Source of the DNA: a virus
Length of the DNA stretch: 64,000 nucleotides
Strand: one strand, 5' to 3'
IMG/VR virus record: IMGVR_UViG_3300036859_000186
Span: 1-64,000 of that record
A model generated the notes under the pieces. That model saw nothing but the letters and a program-made list of their open reading frames with translations. It did not search any database and was not told the DNA's origin. The position numbers and the translations under genes were made by a program. Each line of letters opens with the position of its first letter. Positions within the stretch are counted from its first letter, which is position 1. This document shows positions 10,659 to 30,447 of the stretch, piece after piece.

Positions 10659-10753
10659 TGGCACGGATGAAAAGAGCAGCAGGGATGCGGGTTTGAACTG
10701 CGCGGCTTATGAGGCCGTTCAACCATGATAACCCTACAAAACGACCCGTGTCA
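10659..10753 (-). ncRNA. Y-RNA-like ncRNA copy 1 (carries CAU anticodon stem-loop)
   Basis: CACGGGT-CG...GTAGGG-TTATC...CCCTGC...ATCCGTG; apical CGGC-CTCATAA-GCCG. Confidence 0.65.
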
Positions 10754-10757
10754 AAAA

Positions 10758-10834
10758 TGGTGGAATCGACAGGAATTGAACCTGCAACCCCCTGCGTGCA
10801 AGGCAGGCGCTCTACCATGTTGAGCTATCCCCGC
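10758..10834 (-). pseudogene. tRNA-Ala(TGC)-like gene with defective acceptor stem
   Basis: Intact D, anticodon and T arms and ACCA, but 5' acceptor strand lacks about 3 nt. Confidence 0.7.
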
Positions 10835-10838
10835 AAAT

Positions 10839-10914
10839 TGGCCCAATCGGCACGGATTGAACGTGCGACCTCCGGCTCTTCAGACCAGCGCTCTACCAGC
10901 TGAGCTACGATTGG
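10839..10914 (-). tRNA. tRNA-Phe(GAA)
   Basis: CCAATCG/CGATTGG acceptor; CTGAAGA loop; CCA. Confidence 0.9.
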
Positions 10915-10920
10915 AAAGGC

Positions 10921-11004
10921 AACACGGACAAGTTGGGAATGAGGAAGTGGGAGCCATCACGCTTCCCTGTTTGCGATGATAATCCTCACTCATCGGCCCG
11001 TGCT
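10921..11004 (-). ncRNA. Y-RNA-like ncRNA copy 2
   Basis: GCACGGGC-C-GA...GAGTGAGGA-TTATC...TTCCTCATTC...CTT-GTCCGTGT. Confidence 0.7.
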
Positions 11005-11010
11005 TAAAGC

Positions 11011-11136
11011 TTTGCAGTCATCACCACGCGCTACCCATCCCGGAGTCCACTACTATGTAGTAGGTTACTGTTTCGTGCATACCGGGCTTTAAGATCGGGC
11101 CTACAAACCCTCAAGCCTTGTCCGTGTGACTGCAAA
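11011..11136 (-). ncRNA. unknown structured RNA inside tRNA cluster
   Basis: 10-bp perfect closing stem TTTGCAGTCA/TGACTGCAAA; inner CCGG and CTACTA/TAGTAG stems. Confidence 0.45.
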
Positions 11137-11137
11137 T

Positions 11138-11215
11138 TGGGTGCCCCCGGCTAGATTCGAACTAGCACTGAACCGCTTCTGAGGCGGATATCTCTGCCAT
11201 TTGGATTACAGGGGC
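11138..11215 (-). tRNA. tRNA-Leu(CAG) with short variable loop
   Basis: GCCCCTG/CGGGGGC acceptor, A73; CCGC-CTCAGAA-GCGG; TTCGAAT; ends ACCCA. Confidence 0.8.
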
Positions 11216-11257
11216 ATACGTAGGCGTTTGATCGGGTCTTTGTGTGGCATATATAGT

Positions 11258-11332
11258 TGGCTATGGCGGATGGAATCGAACCATCATTACAGGATTCAGA
11301 GTCCTGAGTCCTACCAGTTGAACGACGCCACA
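11258..11332 (-). tRNA. tRNA-Gln(CTG)
   Basis: TGTGGCG/CGCCATA, G73, CCA; CAGGA-CTCTGAA-TCCTG. Confidence 0.92.
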
Positions 11333-11333
11333 A

Positions 11334-11408
11334 TGGAAGGCGGTGCTGGGATCGAACCAGCCTTAGATGTTTTGCAGACACCCGTCTCAACCGACTGACT
11401 CACTGCCC
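11334..11408 (-). tRNA. tRNA-Cys(GCA)
   Basis: GGTGT-CTGCAAA-ACATC; U73; CCA. Confidence 0.88.
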
Positions 11409-11725
11409 GAATTTGAGGCCCACGACGTTACGGTCTGACGAGTAGAAGAGACGTAAACTTCGATGTGCTGTTGAAACTTTTGACCCCACTTCAATGGAAT
11501 CGGGGGCTTGGCTTTGAAAGCTTCAATAAGGCGGTTGGCTGCCGCAAGCGTCTCAACACGCTTACACTGGATGAACATTACCGGGTCAGAGCCCAGCGGG
11601 ACAACTATAAGATCGAAGGGGCCGTGACTTCCTGCAGTGCGAAGGACCTCATAGGCATGATTGCGCCAGAATTTCATTCTAGCATATTCATAAGCCCTGC
11701 CTCTGTTATAGTTCTTATTTGGCAT
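11387..11725 (-). CDS. archaeal-type (Hjc-like) Holliday junction resolvase
   Basis: GRAYE, RTAGSHGPFDLI, IQCK. Confidence 0.8.
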   Translation of the reverse strand: MPNKNYNRGRAYEYARMKFWRNHAYEVLRTAGSHGPFDLIVVPLGSDPVMFIQCKRVETLAAANRLIEAFKAKPPIPLKWGQKFQQHIEVYVSSTRQTVTSWASNSGSESVG

Positions 11726-11740
11726 TTAGAAGTCCTGTCG

Positions 11741-11968
11741 TCATATGACCTCCTGTCCATGCGATTGCTCAGGAGACCACCCACAAAGTAGGCAGTAGGT
11801 GGTGTCTTGGAAGACATGGCTACAACGCACTGCACGTTGTAGTTTCAGGTGCCGTTCATAGGCAGCCCTTGAAGGGAATGCCTCTCGTGGCAGATCTAGG
11901 ATCTTACGTCTAGATCCCGAAGCCGTAGCCTTCTTCTTGTTCTTTGATAGAGCGATCTTTGCGCTCGT
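11741..11968 (-). CDS. small basic Zn-binding protein, possible ACG start
   Basis: CSH...CLLCG; ACG at 11968 preceded by GGAAG. Confidence 0.35.
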   Translation of the reverse strand, partial: TSAKIALSKNKKKATASGSRRKILDLPREAFPSRAAYERHLKLQRAVRCSHVFQDTTYCLLCGWSPEQSHGQEVI

Positions 11969-13157
11969 GGCGTTCGGCTTCCATCGGGTGGTGGCTTTCT
12001 CGCCAGTTGTATCCGAGAGCCAGTGGGTTATCTGAGTTACTGAAGCAGAGCGACCTGTAGGCACAGGGGTTGCCGAACGCCGGGTAGCACTGCTCGAACT
12101 TCTGCGGGAAGTAGGCGTCGAGACCTGCTGCCCGTGTTTCCTTGTCGTCGATTTCATAGGTTCCCTCAATCAGGAACATGCCCATCTGGATTTCTCGTTC
12201 CCGGATGGCGCGCTGATTAAAGAAGGCGTTGACTAGGTCTTCGTTAATGAATATCGGCGCGGTTCTGGGGAATTGCTCGACAAGGGTATTGTCTGGCATA
12301 TTGGCGACCCATTCACGAACTCCACCTTCCATTTCCCATACAGGTGCCCGTTTGAATCCTGGAGCGTAATCGTAGCGCACTTCTCCTGAGATAAAAGGAG
12401 GTTGAGCAGAGCGTGCGTAACCGTAACAGAAAGGACTTGACTGTTTTCCATATGACTCATAGCCTTTGTAGAGGCCCTGAACAATGACTGCGGCTACGGG
12501 CTGGCCGAGCTTCGCTTCGATGGCCTTAATGGAGGAGTGGACCTGCACCGCAGTGTTCCACGAGTTGATCCACTTGTCCTTCTTGGACATAGTGGACTTG
12601 TATTCGATGTAGAAGGCATCCCCGTCTCTGCCTAGCACCAAGTCGGGCTTCGACATGAATCTTATACCGTCATGGTCGTAGGTAAGCTCCTGCTCGATGA
12701 GCAGAATCTCCGGGTATTCCGCGATGAGGGCGGGCCAGACAGCCTTATGGAACCCTCGAACAAGCCCCTCAACAAGAGTAGACTGTTCCTTCGCAAAAAC
12801 GATGGTTTCGAACTCGTCGCCAGTATCACCCGATGTGATTTGATTGGCGATAGAGTCATACATGTGCTTTCGGGCGGCATCAGCGATAGCGTCGATGTCG
12901 ATCCCACCTTCCTTGTGTTGGAAGGCAATGGCTGCAAGGGCATCATGAATGGCAGTGCCCATGTAGAGATAGAAGTCGGTGGATTCTGGCACGACACCGC
13001 GACCACCAAACTCGTAGTTCCAGTAACGCTTGCGTGGACACGACCAGTCCGTAGTAGAGCGGGTTCGGTCATACAGGAGAAGTTCGTGAACCGATGGGGT
13101 GTTCTGCTGTTGAATTATGGCAGCAGGGACAAAATGCGCGTCGTTTTTCTCGGACAT
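11910..13157 (-). CDS. Cas4-like PD-(D/E)XK nuclease
   Basis: CPRK, GTAIH, KPDL, IEYKS, C-terminal Cys cluster. Confidence 0.85.
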   Translation of the reverse strand: MSEKNDAHFVPAAIIQQQNTPSVHELLLYDRTRSTTDWSCPRKRYWNYEFGGRGVVPESTDFYLYMGTAIHDALAAIAFQHKEGGIDIDAIADAARKHMYDSIANQITSGDTGDEFETIVFAKEQSTLVEGLVRGFHKAVWPALIAEYPEILLIEQELTYDHDGIRFMSKPDLVLGRDGDAFYIEYKSTMSKKDKWINSWNTAVQVHSSIKAIEAKLGQPVAAVIVQGLYKGYESYGKQSSPFCYGYARSAQPPFISGEVRYDYAPGFKRAPVWEMEGGVREWVANMPDNTLVEQFPRTAPIFINEDLVNAFFNQRAIREREIQMGMFLIEGTYEIDDKETRAAGLDAYFPQKFEQCYPAFGNPCAYRSLCFSNSDNPLALGYNWRESHHPMEAERHERKDRSIKEQEEGYGFGI

Positions 13158-13320
13158 CTTAAGCGGGCCTCGTAGGCGGTTCCCAGGGAATTGACACGAT
13201 AAACAGTGCAATTGTAACAACGGTAAGGACGATTAGAACCATGAGTTCCTTCTAGGAACCGAAAGGTTCCTTGTAAACGGCCGGTGACGCCCGGTCGTGG
13301 GACGGTTGTTGTGTTGAGGA

Positions 13321-13384
13321 AGCTTAGCACAAACGGCCCAAGAATGTCAAGTCCTTGACATACAGGCGGTTACCATGCTATGAT
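13321..13384. promoter_or_regulatory. back-to-back divergent sigma70-type promoters
   Basis: TGTCAA-GTCC-TTGACA; + strand TTGACA-18-TATGAT, - strand TTGACA-18-TAAGCT, both with TG extension. Confidence 0.7.
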
Positions 13385-13452
13385 CCTGCCCTAACTGCGG
13401 AAACCTCACCCACTAAGGGTGGCTCTTAAGGGTTAGTCTCCCTGGAGGGAGC

Positions 13453-14445: not shown

Positions 14446-14462
14446 GGCGAGGCAGTAAGAAC

Positions 14463-15759: not shown

Positions 15760-16159
15760 GAGTATTCCTAGGTCTTCGTTTGACTCCAGAACGCCCCAAA
15801 GCAAGTATTTCTTTAGCACGTTCTTGCCGTCTATGACTAAGCCAAGGCCACATGTAAGCTATTACAGCTTGGACATACTCAAAGCTGGTTACTCGCCAAG
15901 CCCATTGGGATTTTCTGGTTTTGATTGTTTCGTAGCTATAAATTCGAGGGGGTCGGTAGTAGATATTTCCACAACCAAGGATATGCTGAAGTCTAATGAG
16001 CAAATCTTTGTCAGACAACTGCATACCCAAGCTTACACCCTTGCCTTGGACACTAAACCATCCTTCACCTTCGAATAAGCCAGCGGCCCAAATGACATCC
16101 TCTCTTGAGGAGAAAGGCTTAACAGCATCTAGTATAACTGAGTTCGTGTCTATTTCCAT
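15746..16159 (-). CDS. LAGLIDADG homing endonuclease
   Basis: WAAGLFEGEG. Confidence 0.85.
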   Translation of the reverse strand: MEIDTNSVILDAVKPFSSREDVIWAAGLFEGEGWFSVQGKGVSLGMQLSDKDLLIRLQHILGCGNIYYRPPRIYSYETIKTRKSQWAWRVTSFEYVQAVIAYMWPWLSHRRQERAKEILALGRSGVKRRPRNTHAKT

Positions 16160-19711: not shown

Positions 19712-19714
19712 CGG

Positions 19715-20659
19715 CTACTCCCTTCCCTGCGCCCATTGCCTAATGGCGTTGGCGTAAACGTCCACGCTTCCACCCTCAAGACCAGGAGCCCGGTTGACTT
19801 CCAGAACGATGAGGCTGCCATCGCGCTTTTCGCCGATGTCCACCGCACCGAAATCGAGACCAAGGGCCTCGACGGCTTCGTGGGCCAGATCACGGTGGGC
19901 CTGTCTAGAGGTTTGCCCATCGTAAAGGATGCGCCAACCCCCGTCCCATGACCTGATCCATGCGTGAGCACGTCGAGTCCCATTGGCACCGTCGAGAGAG
20001 AAGCCCTCTCTCAATGCCTTGACGCCAGCCCGGAGGCTGCGTCCCTTGAAGGAGTGAACCCGGACTTCCTGCACGAGGTCTTCCTTCTTTGCGTAGTAGT
20101 CGCCGCCACGGTTGGCGAGCAGGTCGTTCCCACCGACGTGACTGTTGGAGCGGCTGAGCCATTCTCCCACAGGTCGGCCCGGTTGTGCAACCGGAGCCGC
20201 GATTGCCAGGGCTCCAGTCAGTCCGTTCAGCTTGGCGAGGAGGTCGCGGACACCGTCCACGAGTGGTCCTCGACGGGGAAGAGGTCCCGCAGGGAGTGTC
20301 AGATTGACCAGTTCCTCGGCCGCTTCCTGGGCATCGCGCATGATGGCGATTGCAGGATCGACCGCAGCAGCCACCGGAGGAGGCGCTGCTGGGCGCTGGA
20401 GTGAGACCTGAATTGTTGGAACCCCTTCCCGCGCCAAGAGTTCGGCGTCGGAAAACTTGTTGCGGATGGTCGTGCCGTTCAGAACACGCACACCACGGAT
20501 TTCTGGGACCGCTTCACCCCAGGCAATGACCACGTCACCGGCACGGGCCTTGCGTTCGATGGGAACCTCAGTTCCTCGAAAGCGGCGAGCACCCTGTCCA
20601 AGCGCTTCCGCAAGCAGACGAGCCCCCGTAGAGGCGTTCTTTCTGTAAACGTAAATCAC
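19715..20659 (-). CDS. ATP-grasp peptide ligase (RimK-like)
   Basis: NKF...GVPT, EVRVH, LGLDFGAVD, LEVNRAPGL. Confidence 0.85.
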   Translation of the reverse strand: MIYVYRKNASTGARLLAEALGQGARRFRGTEVPIERKARAGDVVIAWGEAVPEIRGVRVLNGTTIRNKFSDAELLAREGVPTIQVSLQRPAAPPPVAAAVDPAIAIMRDAQEAAEELVNLTLPAGPLPRRGPLVDGVRDLLAKLNGLTGALAIAAPVAQPGRPVGEWLSRSNSHVGGNDLLANRGGDYYAKKEDLVQEVRVHSFKGRSLRAGVKALREGFSLDGANGTRRAHAWIRSWDGGWRILYDGQTSRQAHRDLAHEAVEALGLDFGAVDIGEKRDGSLIVLEVNRAPGLEGGSVDVYANAIRQWAQGRE

Positions 20660-20690
20660 GACTATCCTCCCCGGCGCAGAAATCGCGCCG

Positions 20691-21008
20691 CTAATACCCT
20701 TGCCGTTTTCGGTAATTAACCCTCTTCTGCTCACGCTGCTTCCAACCACTGAGCCACTGTGTGTAACGGTAGGGCCACGTCGGAAAGATGAAGCCGAACG
20801 TCACAATTGTCACTGCGTAAGAGACTACGCAGACTATCGCCGCAACCCACGTCAGAACGAGGTCAAAGAACGATATGGGATAGAACGTCACGAACGCCTT
20901 ACCGGGAGACTGGCCATGGATTACGAGGAAGCCAATGAGCCGGAGAAGGAACAAGGCCGCAGCGGCCAAGCCAATTATGACGAGGATAAGAGCCACGATT
21001 CCCCACAT
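20691..21008 (-). CDS. membrane protein
   Basis: Hydrophobic helices; AAGGAG RBS. Confidence 0.5.
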   Translation of the reverse strand: MWGIVALILVIIGLAAAALFLLRLIGFLVIHGQSPGKAFVTFYPISFFDLVLTWVAAIVCVVSYAVTIVTFGFIFPTWPYRYTQWLSGWKQREQKRVNYRKRQGY

Positions 21009-21009
21009 G

Positions 21010-21165
21010 TTAGGCTCCTTTCTTGGCCCCACAGACGGTGCAGACCCAGCCGTTGTCTTTGGCGGCAAGGTTGTGGACCCTCATGCCAGGACCATACTTC
21101 TTGTCCTGGTATTCGTGAACGCAAGTGCAACCTCGCACGGAGGTAGCTTTCTTAGGATCAGCCAT
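21010..21165 (-). CDS. small Zn-binding phage protein
   Basis: CTCVHEYQD...YG...RVHN...CTVCG. Confidence 0.6.
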   Translation of the reverse strand: MADPKKATSVRGCTCVHEYQDKKYGPGMRVHNLAAKDNGWVCTVCGAKKGA

Positions 21166-21482
21166 AGGACTCCTCCTTTGTAGCGGGGCTGCCTTTGTCA
21201 TCTTCCCACTGATCAAGAAACATTTGCACATCAACAGTGATGTTCTTGAGATCGGTCAAAGCCGTGCCACTCACAGGTCGTTTGGCCATTGCTCGTTTAA
21301 TTTGACTCTCGAAACTGTCGAGACACTCGTCCAGAAGTTCAAGGGCTACCTGAAGGTCTGCTTCCAGACTTTCAGTATAAGCGACGTATTGATCGTCGTG
21401 CTCAATGCTCACCTCGACGACCGTCTCACCTTCTTTGGCTGGCGGTTTGTCGGGCTCCGGCACCATGTCGCATAGTCGCATG

Positions 21483-22592
21483 TTAACCCTCATCATCCCC
21501 AATGAGCGGAGCATTATTCCAAGCAATACGCTCATCGGGCTGGAGTGCTTGAGGAGGAGCCGCAGGTTGCGGCATACGACCCTCTTCAAGAATCATCCGA
21601 CGAAGTTGCTCCATTGCCAGGGCATGATCTTCTTGCTGTTGTGCTTGGATTTCACCTCGTCCGATTCCCGCCCATTCCCGGCGGTTCAGCACTGGTCGTG
21701 GATCATCCGGCTCAAGCCGATCTCGCTCAAATGGAGCAGGTTCGGGGAACGGTTGAGGGGGTGCTGGCATATGGAATACCGCTGCACCACCACGTCCTAC
21801 TGCACGACCGGCCCGACCAACCTGTGCAGGTCGTGGGACATCAAAGGGACCATCGAGGTCCAGGCCCAAGCGACGGCCCGCTACGGCTCCACCGAATTGT
21901 GCATCAGGTGGTCGCACCGGCTGAGGAAGCGGTTGCCCGTCCTCGGTGTGCTGACCGCAGTTGACCTTCTTCGAGTGCAGATTCTTGTAGCCTCGACCCA
22001 ACGTGACTGGCGCTTCACAGAAGTCACATGCCACAGCTTGGGGTCGAACACAGTGGTGGCAGTAGAGGATGGTCCGCCCATCATCCCGACCCACAGTGAC
22101 CATTTCACCCTCGTTTAGCTTCCGGGAGCAAACGCCACACTGAGTTTCGGTGAGATTGGAGGCCGCCAACTTGGCCATCTCGTCGGGTCGCAGGAGAACT
22201 TGACGCAACTGACGGATGACCTTCCCAGACAGAGTGTTGGCTGGAAATGGAAGCTGAAGGACCGCAGCGAGTTTGTCGATGAGGTCTCCATCCTCTCCTT
22301 TGTATTCCTGCCCAAGCTGCTCCAGAGCAAGGTTGATCATGGTCTTCCACGAGGTCCGACCCGGATCTTCGTCCGTGCCGTCGTAGAACTGGAGATGACC
22401 CCAGTTGCCGAACTTGAAGACCCCGTCCAACTGTTTGTAAGGGTCCACATAGTCTCGTGAACTGAACCGCCCGTCCTTGTAACTACGCCAGACGTTGGCG
22501 TGGACATCCTCAAAGCGTGCGCCAGCACCGTGCTCCAGGTAGAGCATGGCGATAACAGCTCGCTTCAGGTAGTCGTTGTAAAGCCTGATCAT
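21483..22592 (-). CDS. hypothetical protein with Zn-finger domain and low-complexity tail
   Basis: CGVC, CHHC, CDFC; GGAGG RBS. Confidence 0.6.
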   Translation of the reverse strand: MIRLYNDYLKRAVIAMLYLEHGAGARFEDVHANVWRSYKDGRFSSRDYVDPYKQLDGVFKFGNWGHLQFYDGTDEDPGRTSWKTMINLALEQLGQEYKGEDGDLIDKLAAVLQLPFPANTLSGKVIRQLRQVLLRPDEMAKLAASNLTETQCGVCSRKLNEGEMVTVGRDDGRTILYCHHCVRPQAVACDFCEAPVTLGRGYKNLHSKKVNCGQHTEDGQPLPQPVRPPDAQFGGAVAGRRLGLDLDGPFDVPRPAQVGRAGRAVGRGGAAVFHMPAPPQPFPEPAPFERDRLEPDDPRPVLNRREWAGIGRGEIQAQQQEDHALAMEQLRRMILEEGRMPQPAAPPQALQPDERIAWNNAPLIGDDEG

Positions 22593-22602
22593 TGTTCCTC
22601 CC

Positions 22603-23817
22603 TTACAACCGTCCTTGAAAATGGACCCCACGGACGAAGTCGTTTCGGCGTCGTTCTCGCTCCGACTCACAATCTGGCATTACACCGGATGCGAGCTGTT
22701 GTTCTAATGGAAGGTCCCGGTGCCGTCCTGCGACCCATCGTTGGGCAGAGCGAGCCACGACCCCTGCTGGCGGAGTTCGTCTCTCAGCCATCTCAGGAAT
22801 TTCGGGAATTGATGGATCGGTGGCGGGGGCCGCATCGCCGGTCCAGTGTTTCTGAGCGGCGGCAGAGTTCCCCCCTGCCGCACTTTTGTAATGGGCGGGT
22901 AGAACCCCTAGTGGATCAGGGTTTTGCCGCCCTTCTGCTCCAACTTCGTTTGCATCACGAACAAGGCTTCCAAGTCTTTGTGATACGCCTTCTTCGCCGC
23001 CTTCCACTTCCTCCGACCGATCTTCTTCGCCCGATACAGCCTCGTCGCCTCGGCGAAAGGTTGTCCCAGGCGGGAGGGAACCTCCGGTCCCCTTAGTCCG
23101 TTTCGTGGATTCTTGTGAGGCCCCAGGGCTCCTGGACCCATTCTTGTCCGTTCCAGTGCTGTCTCCCGTTGCCCCCACCGTAGGGCGGTCATCGTCCTTG
23201 CGACCTCCCTGGTTGTTCACATATCCCACGTTCCGGGATACGCCCCGAAACTCCCAGTGCTTGTTGCTGCACCACACCTCCTCACTCATCGACCAGGGTC
23301 CGCCGAACAATTCCAGCTGGCCCTTGGGCGTGAAGACGACGACCTTCTCGTCGATCATTTCGAGGATGCCAAGACCGTAGTGATGGGCGAGCCAGGCCAT
23401 CGTGCGGCTGTCGCTCCACTTCCCGGAGGGAAGCTTGAATCCCACGTTCTTGACGGCGGCTTCAAGGGCAACGTCCTTGTATTTGCCCCAGTGGCCGTTG
23501 TGAAACAGCACCGGATTGGGTCCTTGACCCTCGATGGTTGTGGTCGCGTTCTCGTCCACCACGAACGGGTGGGTGAGGAAGCGAGATGGCCCACCGCAGC
23601 TTGCGATGCGAAAGTGGAGCACGTAAGGCAGCGGAATCTCTTTGGCAAGGTCCTGGATTTCCCCAAGTTCCATGCCCTTCTTCCACTGCACCCAGGGCTC
23701 ACCCTTGGGACCCTCGACACGCCAAGCGGCACCGGCCCCCTCAGCGTTCGTTTCGTAGGCCCTCTCGATCATGCTCTCGGTTGGGCGCTTCTTCTCTGCA
23801 ATGAAAATGACACACAT
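22603..23817 (-). CDS. class II (Ntn) glutamine amidotransferase
   Basis: Met-Cys N-terminus; HFRIAS, HPF, HNG, SDSR. Confidence 0.9.
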   Translation of the reverse strand: MCVIFIAEKKRPTESMIERAYETNAEGAGAAWRVEGPKGEPWVQWKKGMELGEIQDLAKEIPLPYVLHFRIASCGGPSRFLTHPFVVDENATTTIEGQGPNPVLFHNGHWGKYKDVALEAAVKNVGFKLPSGKWSDSRTMAWLAHHYGLGILEMIDEKVVVFTPKGQLELFGGPWSMSEEVWCSNKHWEFRGVSRNVGYVNNQGGRKDDDRPTVGATGDSTGTDKNGSRSPGASQESTKRTKGTGGSLPPGTTFRRGDEAVSGEEDRSEEVEGGEEGVSQRLGSLVRDANEVGAEGRQNPDPLGVLPAHYKSAAGGNSAAAQKHWTGDAAPATDPSIPEIPEMAERRTPPAGVVARSAQRWVAGRHRDLPLEQQLASGVMPDCESERERRRNDFVRGVHFQGRL

Positions 23818-23889
23818 GGTGAATGCTGCCTCCTAGGGGCACAAAGCGCCCCGTTAAAGTGCCAGTTAACGGACTTCTACCCCTTCTTT

Positions 23890-24630
23890 CTAGACGTTGA
23901 CTCTCCGATGAACGATGAGCGGCTCGTCGTCGAGAGCGACACCCCCCACCACTGCACGCTCTCTCCTGGCCGTTGCCACCAGGAAAGCATTCGTGATTCT
24001 CATGATCTCCTGCACCGCTTCCAACCCTTGTTCGGGGGTCTTCATCATTGGCAGGAGTCTGCACTCAGCCGTCGTGTAACGGCCATAGCAGTAGTTGACG
24101 ACCGAATACCGATTGCCCTCACGGTTCTGGTCGAAATCCTTGGCCGCGTTCGTCGCTTGTTCGTCGGCACTGAAGATGTGCTGACAATAGCGGCTCTTCC
24201 CAGCAAGGCGGTCCCAGATGGCGTGGTCTTTGGGAAGACCAACCTTCTTGGCCCATAGCTCCACCTCAGCCAGAATCGTGGCCGGGTAGGTGTTCACCAT
24301 GATGCGCTGGTAGCTCATGGCGTTCTTGAACGATAGATGGACGTGCATGCCGCAGGTCTGGTTCACAGCCTGCGGATAGAACTTCGCCATCCATCCGGGC
24401 AGCTCTTCGGGTGACAGTGGTGGAGACGGCAGCTCTCCTATGTGGACAATGGGATGATCCTGATCGAGAGAATCCCCATGTCCCACATGAACAGAGCCGT
24501 CGTGACCGATGCGTGTTCCTGCAGGGATCTTAGTCCAACCCCCCTCCAGCTCCACGCCAACCTTGTAAACCCGATTGAACCTCACCCGAATGCCGCTCAA
24601 ATCAATCGGCTTTCCGAGTTTCCCTGCCAT
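23890..24630 (-). CDS. putative amidoligase (amidoligase_2 type)
   Basis: GVELEG, HDGSV, GELPS, CGMHVH, RY...N, ECRL. Confidence 0.85.
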   Translation of the reverse strand: MAGKLGKPIDLSGIRVRFNRVYKVGVELEGGWTKIPAGTRIGHDGSVHVGHGDSLDQDHPIVHIGELPSPPLSPEELPGWMAKFYPQAVNQTCGMHVHLSFKNAMSYQRIMVNTYPATILAEVELWAKKVGLPKDHAIWDRLAGKSRYCQHIFSADEQATNAAKDFDQNREGNRYSVVNYCYGRYTTAECRLLPMMKTPEQGLEAVQEIMRITNAFLVATARRERAVVGGVALDDEPLIVHRRVNV

Positions 24631-24755
24631 TGCTTTTCCTCCCCTCCCCCAAAGATGAGGGAAAAATCCACCTCGACCCTCTCAACAAACGACGTTGGCG
24701 ACGCTTTGCGTTCTCTCGCAAGCGTCTCTCCATATCGGCAGAGCGCTTGGTCATG

Positions 24756-25286
24756 TTACGGCATTTCCTGGGTGCTCACGAGGACATACATGTCCACGGG
24801 CTTCAGGAACTCCTGGTAGAGCGCCCTTGAGGCGTCCTCGATCTTCTTTGCGATGGCTTGCACCATCTCAGTGGTGTAGACGCCCTTGACGCTGAAGGTC
24901 ACACCCTCAGCTTCAGAGATGCCCACGAGCCTCAGGAAGCTCATGTTAATGCAGTCGTATTCGTCATGGAACAGCAGCCGATCTCCAGGCTTGTCCAAAC
25001 GATACGCGGAGCCCAGCTTCCGGCCGACGATGTTCGTCAGGCCCCCATCATTCGCCATGTGATAGCAAGCAAGAGGCTTCGCATCCTCCCCAGTCTGGCC
25101 GACCCAGTAGCGAGCCATAGCCCGCACTTCCATGATATCGCCGGTTCCGATGGCCTTCATGAAGGCTTCGACTTTGGGGTGAGCCCAGATATTGATGCTC
25201 AGTCCTTCGTGGTTGCGGCGAATCCGTGTTCTGATGCACTGCTCGCCACGGGCGTTCTTCTCGATCTGGATGATGTTCGGTTCCAC
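24756..25286 (-). CDS. hypothetical protein
   Basis: GGAGG RBS, GTG start. Confidence 0.55.
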   Translation of the reverse strand: MEPNIIQIEKNARGEQCIRTRIRRNHEGLSINIWAHPKVEAFMKAIGTGDIMEVRAMARYWVGQTGEDAKPLACYHMANDGGLTNIVGRKLGSAYRLDKPGDRLLFHDEYDCINMSFLRLVGISEAEGVTFSVKGVYTTEMVQAIAKKIEDASRALYQEFLKPVDMYVLVSTQEMP

Positions 25287-25866
25287 TGCAGTCCTCCCTA
25301 AAAACTGAACGGCTTCGCCTCAACAGGGACGCCGGGGTCTTGAATGACGGGACGGACGACACCATCCTTGCATCGGACAGTGCCATTCTCGTTGAATTTA
25401 TGTTCGCACTGATAGCATCCACCGCACCGCGAGCAGCGATACGGGAAGATCCTATCATCGTGTTCATCGTGCACTTGGCACTTTAAGTTCATGAAGCAAC
25501 CTCGTTCTGGTTTCGAGATCGACTTGCAAGGCTTCCATCATCTGGAGGGACGCACCAAGCCTCTTTGACAGGTCATTGAGACTCTGCCCGGCTCCAGTAG
25601 CGGCACGAACGTTGTCGATGACAATAGACGCCTCTTCAAGCGTGTTCCTTACAGAGTGCCACGGATGAAGGACCATCCGCCGAAGAGTCGCTTTGTTGCG
25701 TCGGTTTATGTCCATGGCGTTTGGATTCCCAGGCACGCTCCATGATTGGCCGTCTCGAAGTAGAGCCCAAAGGCACCCTCGTAAGAGAAGACTCGAATCA
25801 TGAGCTGACCAGTGGGCCGCTTTTTGAAGCGTCCGATCTTCCAGAGGTCAACGATGAGGGGATTTC

Positions 25867-26907
25867 TCATGATCGAGCCACCGTCTTCTGGAGGAAGTTT
25901 TCCCATCCGCACTCGTGGCCCTCGGGCAGCGTCGTCCAATGCTTCATGGGATCATCAGGGAACCATGCTTCGAGTCCGTCGGTATCGATCTTGGCAACGA
26001 ACTTCTGGAACTGCTTCAGTTCGTGACCAGCCGATAGCCCTCGGTCCGTATTTCCTCCGACGTGGGCTTCGAGGAATTGGGAGAACTTCTCGAAGTTTGC
26101 CTTGGCAAGCCCCACGTCATTGAGGTTGATGGCCCGTCGAACCCTTGGGAGCGGCACCATTCCACGGAGAGTCTTCTCCGCTTCCCAGCGCTTCTCGCCC
26201 ATGATGTCGCTCACCAAACGCCCCAACCCCATCACGAAGGACATGAGCGGGTAAGCTCGAAGCCAGGTGTTGGAGAGCGTTCGGTATTCGACGCCGAAGG
26301 GTTGCTCACGGAACTCACCAGCCCGTCCGTAGACGCGCCGACGAGTTCGCATGAGAGGGTGTCGGTCAAACAGCACCGCTGTGTTGCCGATCACGATGTC
26401 ACAGAGCGCAACGAAGCGCTCATAGCCATCCTCCTCGTGAAGGAGTTCGTTGATGTTGCCGAAGTGCAGGTGCCCACCAGCGGACCGCGTTCGATACGTG
26501 AACGGGTTCACACGGACACCAACCTGCCGCTTGTAAATGCTCTTGCTTGGATTGCACCCAAGCATCTTGACCCGATCAGGCATGGCGTCCATGTCCCGTT
26601 TCGGGATGCGAATCACCGGAGTCCAACAGACCGTGAGGTCGGTGTCTTCCAGTTTGTGCTGAAGGCGACGCATGATGTCGGCCATCATATTGCCAATCTC
26701 AGCACGACAGAACGCTGCCTGTGGGTTGATCTCCAGCTGGATGCCGTCTCGGACGATCTTGCCGAGCCCCTTGAGTTTCATCCCTGCTTCTGGAATCAGC
26801 TCGGACGATGGAACGATGTGACCGTTCCGCGCCAAGAACAACTCTGGGTCCGAACCGAACGATGGATCGGAGTTGTTCTCCACCAATTTCGCATACTGCA
26901 AAGCCAC
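25867..26907 (-). CDS. phiEco32-like COOH-NH2 ligase (type 2)
   Basis: GSDPE, DGIQLE, GCNP, RSAGGHLH, RRRVYGRAG, GVEYRTLSN. Confidence 0.9.
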   Translation of the reverse strand: MALQYAKLVENNSDPSFGSDPELFLARNGHIVPSSELIPEAGMKLKGLGKIVRDGIQLEINPQAAFCRAEIGNMMADIMRRLQHKLEDTDLTVCWTPVIRIPKRDMDAMPDRVKMLGCNPSKSIYKRQVGVRVNPFTYRTRSAGGHLHFGNINELLHEEDGYERFVALCDIVIGNTAVLFDRHPLMRTRRRVYGRAGEFREQPFGVEYRTLSNTWLRAYPLMSFVMGLGRLVSDIMGEKRWEAEKTLRGMVPLPRVRRAINLNDVGLAKANFEKFSQFLEAHVGGNTDRGLSAGHELKQFQKFVAKIDTDGLEAWFPDDPMKHWTTLPEGHECGWENFLQKTVARS

Positions 26908-26976: not shown

Positions 26977-27041
26977 TGTGGACAAGAGATTGCGAGGGAC
27001 CATTTTTATCGCCAAAGATAACGGTCCCAATTCGGCCCACA
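26977..27041 (-). ncRNA. Y-RNA-like ncRNA copy 3 (minimal form)
   Basis: TGTGGGC-C-GAA-TTGGGACC-GTTATC-TTTGGC-GATAA...GGTCCC...CTT-GTCCACA. Confidence 0.75.
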
Positions 27042-27112: not shown

Positions 27113-27541
27113 CTAGTAACGTTCTGTCGTCTTGCTGACTTTCCCTTCCTTCGTCCACTGCGCGATCAGCTTGTTCAGCTGAGTGTAGTCCGGGTTCCAC
27201 ACCACCACGGTTGAGCTGTGGGGAGGATGCACCGGATTCTTGACGAACTCAGAGCGAATGACCGCTCCGAGCTTGTGCTCGGTGACGAACGCCATGAAGG
27301 CGTCCGCATAGAACTTGTGTTCCCCGAGCCACTTCTTGTAGTTCGTGCCCCAGTCCGTCACGTCGGCGAGACACAAGATGATGCACGGCGACCGCATACC
27401 CTTCTTGAGGGCGGCAGCCAGATACGTCTCAAGACTGTCGGCATGGCACAGCCCGCCGATCTCCTGGACGCCACAGTTCTCGACGTAACCCGTTTGTCCC
27501 ATGGTCAGCGCTCTCCTCGGTGAAAGTGATGGCTCATACAT
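27113..27541 (-). CDS. hypothetical protein, paralog of 19358-19711
   Basis: NCGVQEI...LGAVI...KNP...W; start overlaps Ro60 stop. Confidence 0.6.
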   Translation of the reverse strand: MYEPSLSPRRALTMGQTGYVENCGVQEIGGLCHADSLETYLAAALKKGMRSPCIILCLADVTDWGTNYKKWLGEHKFYADAFMAFVTEHKLGAVIRSEFVKNPVHPPHSSTVVVWNPDYTQLNKLIAQWTKEGKVSKTTERY

Positions 27542-29145
27542 TAGACTCTCTCCGCGATGAAGTCGCTGACGATCTGGGGAGCGGCAGAATCGAATCCAGC
27601 CACGTCCAGCGTGCGACGGTCGTCCGGGTCGGCGATGGTGAAGTTCGTCGAGGTCATACCCATGACCACTTCGCAAGCGGCCGGGACGCCCATCTTCTGG
27701 CGATACTGACGGAGGGCTTGCGACGGATGGATGGCACCGGCGTAGGTCTCGTTGTCGGTGATGATGACGAAGCCATCGACCTCAACGCGGTTTTCCATGG
27801 CCCACAGGACGGGCTGAGCGCAGTCGGTGCGGCCGAAGTTGTTGCGCTGTGCAGCTCGGCACACCTCATCGAGGCGCATCTTGGGGGTGATGCCGAGGTC
27901 CACGAAGCGGTCGCAGAACCCGAACGTGTAGTAGTCCTTCTCGACCTTGGCGGTTGCCATCGCCATAGCAGCAGCACCCTCACAGGCACTCAACGGCATG
28001 TTGGCAATTGCGGCTGTCCGCATCGAGCCAGACACGTCGATGCCGAAGACGATCCGTTTGCCGGTCGGCTTCAGAGACTTGAATGCCAGGTAGAACGCAT
28101 CATCGAGAGCGTCCACAACAGCAGGCACTGGCTTCCACGCACCATCACCCCTGACGCCGTGACCAGACGCGTAGGTCTTGAGGGCGATGAGGATCTCGAT
28201 GGGGTGGACGCGTGCCTTGTTCAGCCATTCCTTGTCACCAAGGACAGCGACAACCTTGCGCGAGGCGTCCGAGAGGGGCGCGAGAAGGCCACACTTGGAG
28301 AGGTTGCCCAGGTTGCGGATCATCGCAGTTGCAGGCATCTTCTCCAAAAGAGCAGCCCACACGTCGGGGTCCTTCAGGAATTCGGTGGGGACCATCTCTC
28401 GCGTGAGGCCGTGATTCTGGATGAGTCGGCAGAGGTCACGGGCTGACTCGGCTGACTTGGCAGCCTCAAAGCCTACGATGACCTGGGGAAGCGTGGGTCC
28501 GTCTGCCTTGTGTCCCTCGATGCCATCAACGCACCATTTGAAGATAGCGTTCCGAGCTTCATCTGAAGTCTTCGGGTGCGCCAATCTGAGGACATCCGCA
28601 TTGGACCAGCCGTCCCTCGACTGATACTTGACGACGTGTTGGGCGAGCTTTTCCGTCGGAAGGTCAAGATACCAGTTCGCCAGGGAACTCCGAAGGCCGC
28701 GCCCCAACCCACGAAATGTCGTGACGAAGGCCATGAAATGAAAGAGGTGCGTGGGGATTCGGCAGACCTTCGGGAGAGCAGCCAGTGCCAGCTTTCGAGT
28801 GGCAGGATCTGCAGCAGACGCTGCAAGAGCCAAGGCGAAAATCGCAGGATCGTTCTTCGGTGCTCGTCCTTCATCGGATACCTCCACGATGGTGCGGACC
28901 ACTCTGGCACCATCCGCTTCGATACACCGGATGGTTCGTGCCGCATTCTCCCTCGTCAGTTTCTGAGGAGACGCGTAGTAGCTCCCACCCTCACTGCCGA
29001 GGATCAGGAACCGCAGGAACGCTGCGAAGTCGTCAAGGGCATAGACGTAGCCCCCGGCGCTGTTCTGAACCTGAGCCTCACCCAGGAGTGGTGAAGTCTG
29101 AGGCTGGGCAACACGCGGCCCAATCGAGCTGAACGGTCTCTTCAT
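27541..29145 (-). CDS. rsr: Ro60/TROVE RNA-binding protein (Rsr ortholog)
   Basis: NSAGG, RFLILGSEGGSYY, KYQSRDGWS..DVLRLAHPK, vWA DVSGSM, TDCAQP, TDNET, SIA-like TIADP. Confidence 0.97.
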   Translation of the reverse strand: MKRPFSSIGPRVAQPQTSPLLGEAQVQNSAGGYVYALDDFAAFLRFLILGSEGGSYYASPQKLTRENAARTIRCIEADGARVVRTIVEVSDEGRAPKNDPAIFALALAASAADPATRKLALAALPKVCRIPTHLFHFMAFVTTFRGLGRGLRSSLANWYLDLPTEKLAQHVVKYQSRDGWSNADVLRLAHPKTSDEARNAIFKWCVDGIEGHKADGPTLPQVIVGFEAAKSAESARDLCRLIQNHGLTREMVPTEFLKDPDVWAALLEKMPATAMIRNLGNLSKCGLLAPLSDASRKVVAVLGDKEWLNKARVHPIEILIALKTYASGHGVRGDGAWKPVPAVVDALDDAFYLAFKSLKPTGKRIVFGIDVSGSMRTAAIANMPLSACEGAAAMAMATAKVEKDYYTFGFCDRFVDLGITPKMRLDEVCRAAQRNNFGRTDCAQPVLWAMENRVEVDGFVIITDNETYAGAIHPSQALRQYRQKMGVPAACEVVMGMTSTNFTIADPDDRRTLDVAGFDSAAPQIVSDFIAERV

Positions 29146-29333
29146 TGCATTGTCTCCCCTCTGTTGTGTTGAACGAGTTTCTGAGCTTGCGTTGCCGCCG
29201 CAATCATGGCCTGATCAGACAGCTCGCGCCACACCCTTGCCCATTGCGACAAGGGAGCCCGAACGTCCTTGGGCATGCCAGCGATGGCATCTTCAACCGC
29301 TCTCTTCAACTCTTGATCGGTCACGGCCCCCTC

Positions 29334-29753
29334 CTAGTCGGTCATGTCCTGGTCTACATCGAGCATCCCAGGCGCATCGCCCAGGATGAGAGTGTTTTGA
29401 TTCGTTCGCACGTCCCCATCGTTGAAGCGGATGAAGAAGTGGTCAGGATTGATTGTGCACCTGTAGTAAGTGAGTTTCGAGCCCTCAATAAGTGGAGGGT
29501 CCACCTTGATTACGTGGTGGCACGTAGGGCATGACAACTTGGCTAGACAGTTTTGCACATGACGGTGCCACGCATCGCCAAAGCGCGTTATCCCCATGGG
29601 CTGCCCAGGAACAATCGTGGGCGCATTGGCTATTGGAGTTATCCTCTGGAGGAAGTCTCTGGCCGGTTCCCGGTATGGAGGGAGGGCCAGCTGAGTAGGG
29701 CGGCGTTCCACCCTCGGCTTCCTCTGTTCCTCCTTGAAGTCGTCCATCTTCAT
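29334..29753 (-). CDS. hypothetical Zn-ribbon protein
   Basis: CPTC...C..N..H; GAGG RBS. Confidence 0.5.
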   Translation of the reverse strand: MKMDDFKEEQRKPRVERRPTQLALPPYREPARDFLQRITPIANAPTIVPGQPMGITRFGDAWHRHVQNCLAKLSCPTCHHVIKVDPPLIEGSKLTYYRCTINPDHFFIRFNDGDVRTNQNTLILGDAPGMLDVDQDMTD

Positions 29754-29961
29754 TTCTACCGCCTCTCCTCATCGACACGCAGTAGCTCTTCCTGTCGCCG
29801 TCGCCGTCTTGCGATGGGCACTAGGTATTGTCGCTCCAGTGACTCCAACGCGTTCCTTAGTTCCAGGGACGCATCTATCGCATCTTCGCGGCCTCCATTT
29901 TCTTGGGCAAGAGCATATTTGACGAAAGCAACAAGGAGTCGTTCTTGGCGCTGGTTCATGG

Positions 29962-30141
29962 TTAGCTCTCCTTTTGGCATGCGCCAACATCCCCATGAGC
30001 TGGTGTCAGGTCGGCCCCACAGTAGGGGCACAGGCCAGCCTCAACACATACTCGGATGTAGCGCTCCAGCTCACGGCGCTGACTTAGACGATCCTCTGCC
30101 TTCAGGAGGATGCGAGTATCGAGTATGGGGCTCTTCAACAT
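29962..30141 (-). CDS. small Zn-finger protein (not in ORF track)
   Basis: GAGGT RBS; MLKSPILD...CPYCG. Confidence 0.5.
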   Translation of the reverse strand: MLKSPILDTRILLKAEDRLSQRRELERYIRVCVEAGLCPYCGADLTPAHGDVGACQKES

Positions 30142-30158
30142 GAGCTACCTCAAAAGTG

Positions 30159-30225
30159 CGTCGGATAAATTTCGTAGGCAGCGGTTTTATCTTAGAAGGA
30201 TAACGCTACCAGAGCGACCCGACAC
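30159..30225 (-). ncRNA. Y-RNA-like ncRNA copy 4 (carries UCU anticodon loop)
   Basis: GTGTCGGGT-CG...GGTAGCG-TTATC-CTTCTAA-GATAA...CGCTGCC...TTT-ATCCGACGC. Confidence 0.7.
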
Positions 30226-30233
30226 GTCAAATT

Positions 30234-30338
30234 TGGTGGAGGCTTGATAGGCATATGGACAGAGCGGAGCGGTGATGAGGAGACACAATGCTCGTCAATC
30301 GTTGCTGCGTAATCTGCCGCCAACCCACAACAGCCCCC
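30234..30338 (-). ncRNA. 105-nt RNA with alanine acceptor stem and CCA end
   Basis: GGGGGCT/AGCCTCC-A-CCA: G3-U70 and A73. Confidence 0.55.
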
Positions 30339-30346
30339 ATAAATAG

Positions 30347-30447
30347 TGGAGCCAAGGACAAGTGTTTGCAGAGGGGTATTCCTGTGCGCTGCCTTTCGGC
30401 CCGCTTCTAGGTGCCAGATAACCCTCATGCGTCGGCCCTAGGCTCCA
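30347..30447 (-). ncRNA. Y-RNA-like ncRNA copy 5
   Basis: GGAGCCTAGGGC-C-GA...GAGGG-TTATC...CCCTC...CTT-GTCCTTGGCTCC; GCC-GAAA-GGC tetraloop. Confidence 0.7.

What the first reader, a model, noticed from the sequence alone, without database searches (positions are those of the whole stretch)
10659..30447. Phage Ro60 with a dispersed family of five modular Y-like RNAs
Seen: five minus-strand hairpins (10659-10753, 10921-11004, 26977-27041, 30159-30225, 30347-30447) share one architecture: terminal stem ending GGGY, then CG, a second stem, invariant TTATC, a variable apical module, a loop ending in pyrimidines, and RTCC. The Y/R pair covaries in all five (GGGT/ATCC twice, GGGC/GTCC three times) while the outer stem sequences differ. 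Known: Ro60 binds a bulged-C helix (human Y RNA GGUC-C-GA/UU-GAC; bacterial GNCGAA motif), which GGGC-C-GA/TT-GTCC mirrors. A full Ro60 gene lies at 27541-29145, between copies 3 and 4. Some phages are known to carry Ro plus a YrlA. Inference: here one Ro60 is paired with a repertoire of RNAs having a constant handle and swappable effector heads, spread between the rsr locus and the tRNA cluster.
Basis: partly seen in the sequence, partly recalled or inferred. Interest (0 to 1): 0.92.

Follow-up and report, generated by a model that had tools for sequence, protein, structure and literature searches.

The report
Phage Ro60 with six Y-like RNAs
A 76-kb soil phage carries a Ro60 gene and at least six small RNA genes whose shared stem looks like the Ro60-binding stem of Y RNAs but whose tips all differ; the same RNA type sits beside Ro60 in many other phages, so it is a real, widespread and so far undescribed branch of a known RNA family.

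Summary
All five hairpins are present as described. A covariance model found a sixth copy (31965-32023, minus strand; UUACC in place of UUAUC). A YrlA-type tRNA-like RNA lies at 36197-36300.

The six share a 7-bp lower stem ending GGGY, a bulged C, G, a second 7-bp stem, UUAYC, a variable head, a C/A-rich 3' loop and RUCC. In the six-copy alignment 94.7% of cells pair and 10 of 16 pairs show compensatory changes.

The model built from these six was run on 80 unrelated Ro60-encoding viral contigs. It gave 142 hits in 61 contigs. Every hit is on the Ro60 strand and within 4.1 kb of the gene. Ro60 is the only gene shared by all these loci.

In actinophages the long forms match Rfam YrlA below threshold. 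Short forms match the nematode sbRNA family (Y-RNA homologues); two in other contigs exceed its threshold.

Best reading: these are Ro60-bound Y-like RNAs with one constant handle and exchangeable heads. Several heads look like anticodon stem-loops. This is a new variant of a known kind. Phage Ro60 with Y-like RNAs is published; this handle subfamily, its copy number and its head types were not found in the literature searched. Binding and expression remain untested.

The parts
27541..29145 (-). Ro60 (Rsr) gene, 534 aa, TROVE plus vWA domain with a MIDAS DxSGS motif
   Evidence: Pfam TROVE 4.2e-40 and vWA_Ro60 1.6e-60. PDB matches: 2NVO Rsr 450 bits, human RO60 426 bits, Xenopus Ro60 419 bits. 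It is the only TROVE gene in the 76-kb genome. D370, S372, G373 and S374 are invariant among 30 homologues.
10662..10750 (-). Y-like RNA copy 1 (GGGU/AUCC). It sits in the tRNA array between a tRNA-Ala-like element and tRNA(CAU). The head is a hairpin with the 7-nt loop CUCAUAA.
   Evidence: Model R2, built without this copy, finds it at 25.4 bits, E 1.6e-3. R3 gives 45.8 bits. Fold. The 10-mer CTCATAAGCC is shared with the anticodon arm of the adjacent tRNA.
10923..11002 (-). Y-like RNA copy 2 (GGGC/GUCC), in the tRNA array just upstream of tRNA-Phe. The head is an internal hairpin of about 30 nt.
   Evidence: R1, built from copy 3 alone, finds it at 21.6 bits. R3 gives 59.7 bits. Rfam sbRNA RF01656 gives 30.1 bits, E 3.8e-4.
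26977..27041 (-). Y-like RNA copy 3 (GGGC/GUCC), 500 nt downstream of Ro60. The head is UUAUC-UUUGGC-GAUAA with an AAA bulge.
   Evidence: 72.1 bits. A 23-nt central block (UUAUC-loop-GAUAA-AAA plus flanking bases) is identical in viral contig L038:5849-5911 while both stems differ by compensatory changes.
30160..30223 (-). Y-like RNA copy 4 (GGGU/AUCC), 1.0 kb upstream of Ro60. The head is a 5-bp stem UUAUC/GAUAA with the 7-nt loop CUUCUAA, which resembles an anticodon loop.
   Evidence: R1 gives 24.3 bits and R3 54.3 bits. Counterparts of the same head type occur in L038, L061, L078 and L095.
30353..30441 (-). Y-like RNA copy 5 (GGGC/GUCC), 1.2 kb upstream of Ro60, with an extra outer stem reaching 30347-30447. 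The 40-nt head contains a GAAA-tetraloop hairpin.
   Evidence: R2, built without this copy, finds it at 30.3 bits, E 1.1e-4. R3 gives 47 bits. RF01656 gives 23.1 bits.
31965..32023 (-). It has a 16-nt pyrimidine-rich apical loop. The outer stem extends to about 31955-32034 and is followed by UUUUU. It lies 2.8 kb upstream of Ro60, in the gap after the HD-hydrolase gene.
   Evidence: R1 gives 13.6 bits and R3 65 bits. Sequence. Fold z-score -3.6. RF01656 gives 26.9 bits.
36197..36300 (-). YrlA-type permuted tRNA-like RNA: T arm, closed acceptor-like hairpin, D arm and an anticodon-stem-like helix. It lies 7 kb upstream of Ro60 on the same strand and lacks the GGGYCG...UUAUC handle.
   Evidence: Rfam YrlA RF02553 gives 34.8 bits, E 8.2e-5, over model positions 1-114, which is below the gathering score of 69. 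The minimum-energy fold is a four-way junction.
10578..11408 (-). tRNA array (Cys, Gln, Leu, Phe, an Ala-like element, Met/CAU) that hosts copies 1 and 2
   Evidence: ARAGORN and Rfam.

Best explanation
These are genes for small non-coding RNAs of the Y-RNA kind, the RNA partners of the phage's own Ro60.

Shown: each RNA pairs its 5' and 3' ends into a 7-bp helix ending G-C, G-C, G.U, Y-R. A single bulged C follows, then a G.U (or G-C) pair and in most copies one further pair. Next come an asymmetric internal loop, a second 7-bp helix and an invariant UUAYC. This is the arrangement of the Ro60-binding lower stem of animal Y RNAs and nematode sbRNAs.

Inferred: Ro60 grips this constant handle on its outer surface. 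The variable head then decides what the particle does. By analogy with the Ro60/Y RNA/PNPase machine of Deinococcus and Salmonella, and with the Thermus phage phiLo complex, the head would tether Ro60 to a host or phage partner or gate its cavity. The RNAs have no recognisable promoters. Two of them lie inside a tRNA array. They are therefore probably cut out of longer transcripts by the tRNA-processing enzymes.
For: 1. Six copies share one architecture with different stem sequences. 94.7% of cells pair, 10 of 16 pairs show compensatory changes, and register-shift controls give 43-54% pairing.
2. A model built from four copies recovers the other two as the next-best hits in 128 kb of sequence. 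The whole genome holds exactly six hits.
3. Out-of-sample test: the six-copy model gives 142 hits in 61 of 80 Ro60-encoding IMG/VR contigs. All 142 are on the Ro60 strand and within 4.1 kb of the gene (median 268 nt upstream). There are no hits on the opposite strand or further away in 2 x 1.31 Mb searched.
4. Across 123 distinct sequences the Y-R pair is C-G 75, U-A 47, other 1, and 94.7% of cells pair.
5. Ro60 is the only one of 23 neighbouring genes shared by these loci.
6. The same handle flanks Ro60 in cultured actinophages (Cashline, FuzzBuster, Moab, Bmoc, BlueNGold, A3Wally). Three long forms there (in Cashline, Moab and FuzzBuster) match Rfam YrlA at 33-42 bits.
7. Rfam's nematode sbRNA family, whose members are Y-RNA homologues, matches copies 2, 6 and 5 at 30.1, 26.9 and 23.1 bits. 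It matches two relatives above its gathering score.
8. The family-wide 5' consensus GGGYCGAAG fits the published GNCGAAN0-1G Rsr motif.
9. The protein is a canonical Ro60, as close to vertebrate Ro60 as to Rsr.
Against: There is no direct evidence of transcription, processing or Ro60 binding, and no RNA sequencing run holds this phage. The Rfam YrlA and Y_RNA models do not match the six copies at E up to 10, and the sbRNA matches in this window are below threshold. Only copy 3 comes close to the full GNCGAA motif; the others keep only GNCG. Copies 1 and 2 lie 16.5-16.8 kb from Ro60, outside the 4-kb neighbourhood seen elsewhere. Two Ro60 phages (Sparky, I3) gave no hit. C. elegans sbRNAs, the best Rfam match, were not found bound to the worm Ro60 in vivo (PMC4726728). 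I could not test the model on the experimentally validated M. smegmatis YrlA and YrlB.
Confidence: 0.85

Rival explanations
1. The elements act in cis on the Ro60 transcript rather than as free RNAs. They would be leader or trailer structures through which Ro60, or a nuclease, autoregulates the operon.
For: In other viral contigs most copies sit immediately upstream of Ro60 on its strand, at a median of 268 nt. No separate promoters or terminators were detected around the copies here.
Against: There are up to 12 tandem copies per locus, and copies occur both upstream and downstream of Ro60. Here two copies lie 16.5 kb away inside a tRNA array and one lies after the gene. The closed 5'/3' stems are typical of excised stable RNAs. 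The long forms match YrlA, a trans-acting Rsr-bound RNA family.
Confidence: 0.07
2. They are degenerate tRNA-derived elements or processing punctuation: substrates for RNase P, Z or E that separate cistrons. On this reading they sit near Ro60 only because Ro60 genes tend to lie beside phage tRNA arrays.
For: Copies 1 and 2 are embedded in a tRNA array, and copy 1 ends in CCA. Actinophage copies are interspersed with tRNAs. Some heads are tRNA-like.
Against: In contig L048 the hits cluster in the 730 nt next to Ro60 and not within the array of more than 25 tRNAs upstream of it. The conserved unpaired bases (bulged C, UUAYC) are not tRNA features. No hit lies away from Ro60 in about 1 Mb of same-strand flank.
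Confidence: 0.05
3. They are generic intergenic hairpins (terminators, mRNA stabilisers or a mobile repeat), or DNA-level protein-binding sites, with no link to Ro60.
For: Copy 6 is followed by a U-run. Copy 1 contains a TTGACA-18-TATCAT match to a sigma-70 promoter.
Against: Stem sequences differ while pairing is kept, which points to selection at the RNA level. Association with TROVE genes is strict and strand-specific in unrelated contigs. The terminator scan finds none of them.
Confidence: 0.03

Closest known systems
Bacterial and phage YrlA RNAs (Rfam RF02553; Chen et al. 2014, PMC4201824)
   Same: They are encoded next to Ro60/Rsr on the same strand. They carry the 5' GNCG(AA) motif proposed as the Rsr contact. 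They are modular, with a Ro-binding stem plus an effector head. Actinophage RNAs with this same handle match RF02553 at 33-42 bits. One YrlA-type RNA is present here at 36197-36300.
   Different: The six copies have no T arm, D arm or closed acceptor stem, and they do not match RF02553. Both strands of the Ro-type helix are conserved, whereas only the 5' strand is recognisable in the Salmonella and M. smegmatis RNAs. UUAYC is not part of the RF02553 consensus.
Short second Y RNAs: S. Typhimurium and M. smegmatis YrlB, D. radiodurans Yrn2 (PMC4201824)
   Same: They are small hairpin RNAs that accompany a tRNA-like Y RNA at the rsr locus. [quoted passage not shown] Copy 6 fits that description. 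Co-transcription with tRNA is reported for Yrn2.
   Different: There are six here rather than one. The heads are diverse, and two copies are 16.5 kb from rsr. Homology to YrlB could not be tested because the M. smegmatis locus was not retrievable.
Animal Y RNAs and nematode stem-bulge RNAs (Rfam RF01656; PMC4450293, PMC4726728)
   Same: The order of elements is the same: a 7-bp lower helix, a single bulged C, an asymmetric internal loop, an upper stem, UUAUC at the 5' edge of the variable loop, and a CAAC-UUGNCC 3' strand. RF01656 scores 23-30 bits on three copies here and 38-40 bits (above its gathering score) on two relatives.
   Different: These are phage genes with no Pol III signals. The A/GUG-CAC upper-stem motif was not examined. 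C. elegans sbRNAs are reported to act in DNA replication and not to bind worm Ro60 in vivo. Common descent as opposed to convergence on a conserved Ro60 surface is not resolved.
Thermus phage phiLo phiRo60 with Yrl1 and Yrl2 (PMC12135203)
   Same: A phage-encoded Ro60 has more than one Y-like RNA upstream of the gene. Binding was shown by EMSA and cryo-EM, and a complex forms with host PNPase.
   Different: phiRo60 is only distantly related to this protein, at 41 bits against 450 bits for Rsr. There are two RNAs there, identified by a CGAA motif in an internal bulge, against six plus one here with a different conserved handle.

Membership tests
Y / Yrl RNAs (Ro60-associated ncRNAs) | Encoded close to a Ro60 orthologue and on the same strand (Chen 2014 found nearly all within 4 kb) | tested here: met
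   All six are on the Ro60 strand. Copies 3-6 lie 0.5-2.8 kb from the gene. Copies 1 and 2 are 16.5-16.8 kb away, so they fail the distance part. In 61 of 80 other viral loci, hits lie within 4.1 kb on the same strand.
Y / Yrl RNAs (Ro60-associated ncRNAs) | Helix formed by the 5' and 3' ends with a single bulged C (the vertebrate Ro60 site: a 7-bp helix plus a bulged cytidine) | tested here: met
   A 7-bp helix, an invariant bulged C and a following G.U or G-C pair are present in all six. Compensatory changes occur in 4 of the 9 pairs of that helix, and in 7 of 9 across 123 sequences.
Y / Yrl RNAs (Ro60-associated ncRNAs) | 5' motif GNCGAAN0-1G | tested here: inconclusive
   GNCG is present in all six. 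GNCGAA is present only in copy 3, where the following G comes after two bases. Across related viral contigs the commonest forms are GGGCCG and GGGTCG, mostly followed by AAG, which fits the motif.
Y / Yrl RNAs (Ro60-associated ncRNAs) | Physically bound and stabilised by Ro60, and present as a discrete small RNA | not testable with these tools
   No RNA run holds the phage. The test needs RIP, EMSA or a Northern blot.
YrlA subfamily (RF02553) | tRNA-like domain with a T arm, a closed acceptor-like stem and a D arm, scoring at or above the gathering score of 69 | tested here: not met
   The six copies give no RF02553 match at E up to 10. The separate RNA at 36197-36300 has the domain but scores only 34.8 bits.
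Nematode sbRNA (RF01656) / animal Y RNA | Score at or above the gathering score of 38 | tested here: not met
   The scores in this window are 30.1, 26.9 and 23.1 bits. The score is met by relatives L099:11958-12025 (40.2) and L092:9684-9757 (38.1). Rfam Y_RNA RF00019 gave no match.
Nematode sbRNA (RF01656) / animal Y RNA | UUAUC at the 5' edge of the loop domain | tested here: met
   UUAUC is present in five copies and UUACC in the sixth. Among 129 distinct family members, 90 have TTATC and 26 have TTACC. The motif is described in PMC4450293.
Ro60 / Rsr protein | TROVE (HEAT-repeat ring) plus a vWA domain with MIDAS | tested here: met
   Pfam, PDB matches, and the invariant DxSGS motif.

The most novel reading that the evidence does not exclude
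The family is a display system for parts of tRNA mounted on a Ro60 handle. Short forms present an anticodon-stem-loop mimic: the 5-bp stem UUAUC/GAUAA with a 7-nt loop of the form Y-U-NNN-R-N. The 'anticodons' differ between copies (here UCU in copy 4 and CAU in copy 1; elsewhere UAA, UCA, GCC, UGU, GUU, GCA, CUG, UGG, GAA). Long forms present tRNA bodies. On this reading the phage would use Ro60 particles as decoys or sensors for host factors that attack or read anticodon loops, such as anticodon nucleases, toxins or modification enzymes. The UUAUC shared with animal Y and sbRNAs would then be an ancient feature of Ro particles and not a motif specific to DNA replication.

Basis: in 41 family members UUAYC closes an apical hairpin. 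Of these, 16 have a 7-nt loop, which is the commonest length. Of those 16, 12 fit Y-U-NNN-R where about 1 would be expected. The sequences are not all independent, and a plain U-turn loop would give the same pattern.
Probability: 0.2. Interest if true: 0.85.

Novelty: new variant of a known kind. Interest (0 to 1): 0.62.

Why it matters
Ro60 and Y RNAs are conserved from bacteria to humans, and Ro60 is a major lupus and Sjogren autoantigen. What the variable heads of Y RNAs do is still largely open.

This phage and its relatives offer a compact natural experiment. One canonical Ro60 is paired with six or more RNAs that keep the handle and swap the head. Some heads are conserved between distant phages while their stems drift.

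The phage RNAs keep both strands of the animal-type bulged-C helix and the UUAUC motif. That bears on the published view that bacterial Y RNAs are not homologous to animal Y RNAs. It also makes testable whether UUAUC is a Ro60-linked feature.

The covariance model built here detects the subfamily where Rfam's YrlA model does not. It could be used to annotate hundreds of phage genomes that list a Ro-like protein but no partner RNA.

Tried and rejected
- Rfam at gathering and at permissive thresholds gave no YrlA or Y_RNA match to the six copies.
- MAFFT alignments of the copies (A1, A2) misaligned the 3' halves. I replaced them with model-guided alignments seeded from copy 3.
- Megablast of the Ro60 region against phage records gave no match. 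Single-protein locus searches in viral contigs gave none, and in genomes gave one Chloroflexota MAG contig.
[quoted passage not shown] One pattern gave nothing and the other gave two chance matches that carry no probe sequence and no model hit. The link to the experimentally validated YrlA and YrlB is therefore untested.
- A whole-genome model search of a 6.5-Mb MAG was too insensitive to recover even its known hit.
- No RNA holder is listed for this phage.
- Promoter and terminator scans were uninformative.
- Weak model hits were rejected as members. 47931-47992 (+) and 16045-16092 (-) lie inside long ORFs. 42843-42872 and 42959-42990 (+) are plain hairpins flanking tRNA-Gly that mimic the lower stem only.
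- The head of copy 1 is not a tRNA by the Rfam tRNA model.

Full report
**What is in the window.** The window is the first 64 kb of a 76,344-bp IMG/VR virus record with direct terminal repeats. CheckV rates it complete, and it comes from a soil metagenome. Genes on the minus strand up to about 33 kb include a DNA polymerase, an exonuclease, amide-ligase-type genes, a GNAT, an HD hydrolase and Ro60. The plus-strand block from about 43 kb carries the terminase and presumably the structural genes. Ro60 (27541-29145, minus strand) has a TROVE domain and a Ro60-type vWA domain. It scores 450 bits to D. radiodurans Rsr, 426 to human RO60 and 419 to Xenopus Ro60. It scores only 41 bits to the Thermus phage phiLo protein. 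It is therefore a canonical Ro60.

**The observation.** A mechanical descriptor required GGGYCG, TTATC within 20 nt, a complementary RTCC, an outer stem and a second stem. It found four of the five in the real genome and none in 300 dinucleotide shuffles. Each setting of its thresholds missed one real copy.

**A sixth copy and cross-validation.**
- A covariance model seeded from copy 3 alone found copies 4 and 2. It also found a new element at 31965-32023, which has GGGU/AUCC, UUACC instead of UUAUC, a long outer stem and a U-run.
- A model built from those four (copies 2, 3, 4 and 6) then recovered copies 5 and 1 as the next-best hits in the window, at E 1e-4 and 1.6e-3. This is a leave-out test.
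- The six-copy model (R3) finds exactly these six in the whole genome.
- In the six-copy alignment 94.7% of cells pair, against 43-54% when the partner columns are slid. Ten of 16 pairs carry compensatory changes. The Y-R pair is C-G three times and U-A three times.
- All six copies are intergenic or lie within the tRNA array.

- In cultured actinophages that encode Ro60, R3 hits lie beside the Ro gene, or in the tRNA array next to it, always on its strand. Examples are Cashline (2 hits), FuzzBuster (3 in tandem), Moab (at least 4, one of them 27 kb away), Bmoc, BlueNGold and A3Wally. Sparky and I3 gave no hit.
- A Chloroflexota MAG contig has one hit 100 nt upstream of its Ro60.
- A profile of Ro60 homologues then retrieved 80 viral contigs, oriented with Ro60 on the plus strand.
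- R3 gave 142 hits at E up to 10 in 61 of these contigs. All 142 are on the plus strand and within 4.1 kb of Ro60: 114 upstream (median 268 nt) and 28 downstream.
- One to four copies per locus is typical, and one locus has 12. Nothing hit the opposite strand or the more distant flanks.
- On the 123 distinct sequences the structure is again 94.7% paired. The Y-R pair is C-G 75, U-A 47 and other 1. That alignment is fitted to the model, so it leans toward the structure.
- Of 23 genes around Ro60 in this phage, only Ro60 recurs in these loci. One distant relative (L038) also shares the ligase cluster.
- In L048 the hits sit next to Ro60 and not within its large tRNA array.
- I take this as strong evidence that the handle belongs with Ro60.

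**Relation to known families.**
- Chen et al. 2014 reported YrlA-like RNAs next to Ro60 in 254 bacteria and 22 phages. They described a 5' GNCGAAN0-1G motif, a tRNA-like domain, and a second short Y RNA in each species studied.
- The phiLo study showed that a phage Ro60 binds two upstream Y-like RNAs and host PNPase. Phage Ro60 with Y-like RNAs is therefore a known kind.
- Three long R3 hits, in Cashline, Moab and FuzzBuster, match Rfam YrlA at 33-42 bits, below its threshold. The handle modelled here is thus the Ro-binding module of that lineage.
- The six copies in this window lack the tRNA-like domain and do not match YrlA.
- The window does hold one YrlA-type RNA, at 36197-36300 (34.8 bits, full model length, four-way-junction fold). 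It has a different lower stem.
- Unexpectedly, the best Rfam matches to the short forms are to RF01656, the nematode stem-bulge RNAs. The literature treats these as Y-RNA homologues. The scores are 30.1, 26.9 and 23.1 bits here, and 40.2 and 38.1 bits (above the gathering score of 38) in two other contigs.
- The shared features are the GGNCCG 5' strand with its bulged C, UUAUC at the start of the loop, and the CAAC-UUGNCC 3' strand.
- UUAUC is described as highly conserved in sbRNAs and vertebrate Y RNAs, and as needed for sbRNA activity in a DNA-replication assay.
- The same review states that bacterial Y RNAs are not homologous to the vertebrate clades. The phage RNAs bear on that statement, but I cannot tell common descent from convergence on a conserved Ro60 surface.

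**The heads.**
- Copy 3 carries UUAUC-UUUGGC-GAUAA with an AAA bulge. A 23-nt central block containing this head is identical in L038, whose Ro60 is 57% identical, while both stems have changed in a compensatory way.
- Copy 4 carries UUAUC-CUUCUAA-GAUAA. The same design with other 7-nt loops recurs in L038, L061, L078 and L095.
- Across the family, UUAYC closes an apical hairpin in 41 members. The commonest loop length is 7 nt (16 cases), and 12 of those 16 read Y-U-NNN-R, the anticodon-loop pattern. About one would be expected by chance.
- Copy 1 carries a hairpin whose loop and 3' flank (CUCAUAAGCC) equal those of the neighbouring tRNA(CAU).
- Some long forms elsewhere enclose a collinear tRNA body, covering tRNA model positions 4-67 or 6-65.
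- Copies 2 and 5 have larger idiosyncratic heads, and copy 6 has a pyrimidine-rich loop.
- The 'constant handle, swappable head' description is therefore accurate. Mimicry of tRNA parts is a recurrent theme but is not proven. The sequences are not independent, and a generic U-turn loop would look the same.

**Mechanism.**
- Shown: a structurally constrained RNA family is strictly linked to Ro60 genes, and its handle reproduces the published Ro60 site (a 7-bp helix plus a bulged C).
- Inferred from established work on Ro60, Rsr, Y RNA and PNPase: Ro60 binds the handle, and the head recruits or excludes partners.
- Inferred from context: the RNAs are excised from polycistronic transcripts, two of them together with tRNAs. 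No promoter- or terminator-like signals accompany them.

**Limits.** I have no expression or binding data. The M. smegmatis control could not be retrieved. The covariation statistics are counts with shuffles, not R-scape.

**Verdict.** This is a real Ro60-associated Y-like RNA family, with six members here plus one YrlA-type RNA. It is a new variant of a known kind. Its wider interest lies in the animal-like handle, the copy number and the head repertoire.

Noticed in passing
window 36197-36300 (-): A YrlA-type permuted tRNA-like RNA (T arm, closed acceptor-like hairpin with a GCAA loop, D arm) lies 7 kb upstream of Ro60. Rfam YrlA gives 34.8 bits, E 8e-5. It lacks the GGGYCG/UUAUC handle of the six copies.
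   Followed up: partly
window 33362-33490 (-): A 129-nt tRNA-like RNA fills an intergenic gap. It has a 7-bp acceptor stem GGGUCGU/ACGACCC followed by ACCA, a GGUUCGAAUCC T-loop, and a long multi-helix insert where the D and anticodon arms should be. Fold z-score is -2.6. ARAGORN and Rfam do not call it.
   Followed up: partly
window 30234-30338 (-): A rod-like RNA sits between copies 5 and 4. Its ends form GGGGGCU/AGCCUCC with a G3.U70 pair, followed by ACCA, which is an alanine-acceptor-like minihelix. The fold z-score is only -1.7.
   Followed up: partly
window 10761-10831 (-): A tRNA-Ala(UGC)-like element has a 3-nt deletion and mismatches in the 5' acceptor strand. Rfam tRNA gives 48.8 bits but ARAGORN does not call it. 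It lies directly upstream of copy 1 and has an encoded CCA.
   Followed up: no
window 10725-10754 (-): TTGACA-18 nt-TATCAT, an 11/12 match to a sigma-70 promoter, lies inside copy 1. The -10 hexamer overlaps the UUAUC motif. If active it would start transcription inside the head, reading toward tRNA(CAU).
   Followed up: no
window 42843-42872 and 42959-42990 (+): Two G+C-rich hairpins flank tRNA-Gly on the other strand. They weakly resemble the lower stem only (GGGGCC.../...GUCCCC) and have no second stem or UUAUC. I did not count them as members.
   Followed up: partly
window 19715-26907 (-) and L038:15875-20945: The gene cluster downstream of Ro60 holds a phiEco32-type COOH-NH2 ligase, two unknown ORFs and a RimK-like ATP-grasp. 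This cluster and a GNAT homologue also lie downstream of Ro60 in the distant 99.8-kb viral contig L038 (31-44% identity). L038 also keeps counterparts of copies 3 and 4.
   Followed up: partly
L078:7646-9817 (IMG/VR UViG_3300020020_000028): An array of 12 or more Y-like RNAs of short and long types lies directly upstream of one Ro60 gene. One of them encloses a tRNA body covering tRNA model positions 6-65.
   Followed up: partly
L099:11958-12025 and L092:9684-9757: Two phage RNAs score above the Rfam gathering threshold of the nematode sbRNA family RF01656. Automatic annotation would therefore label them as nematode sRNAs.
   Followed up: no
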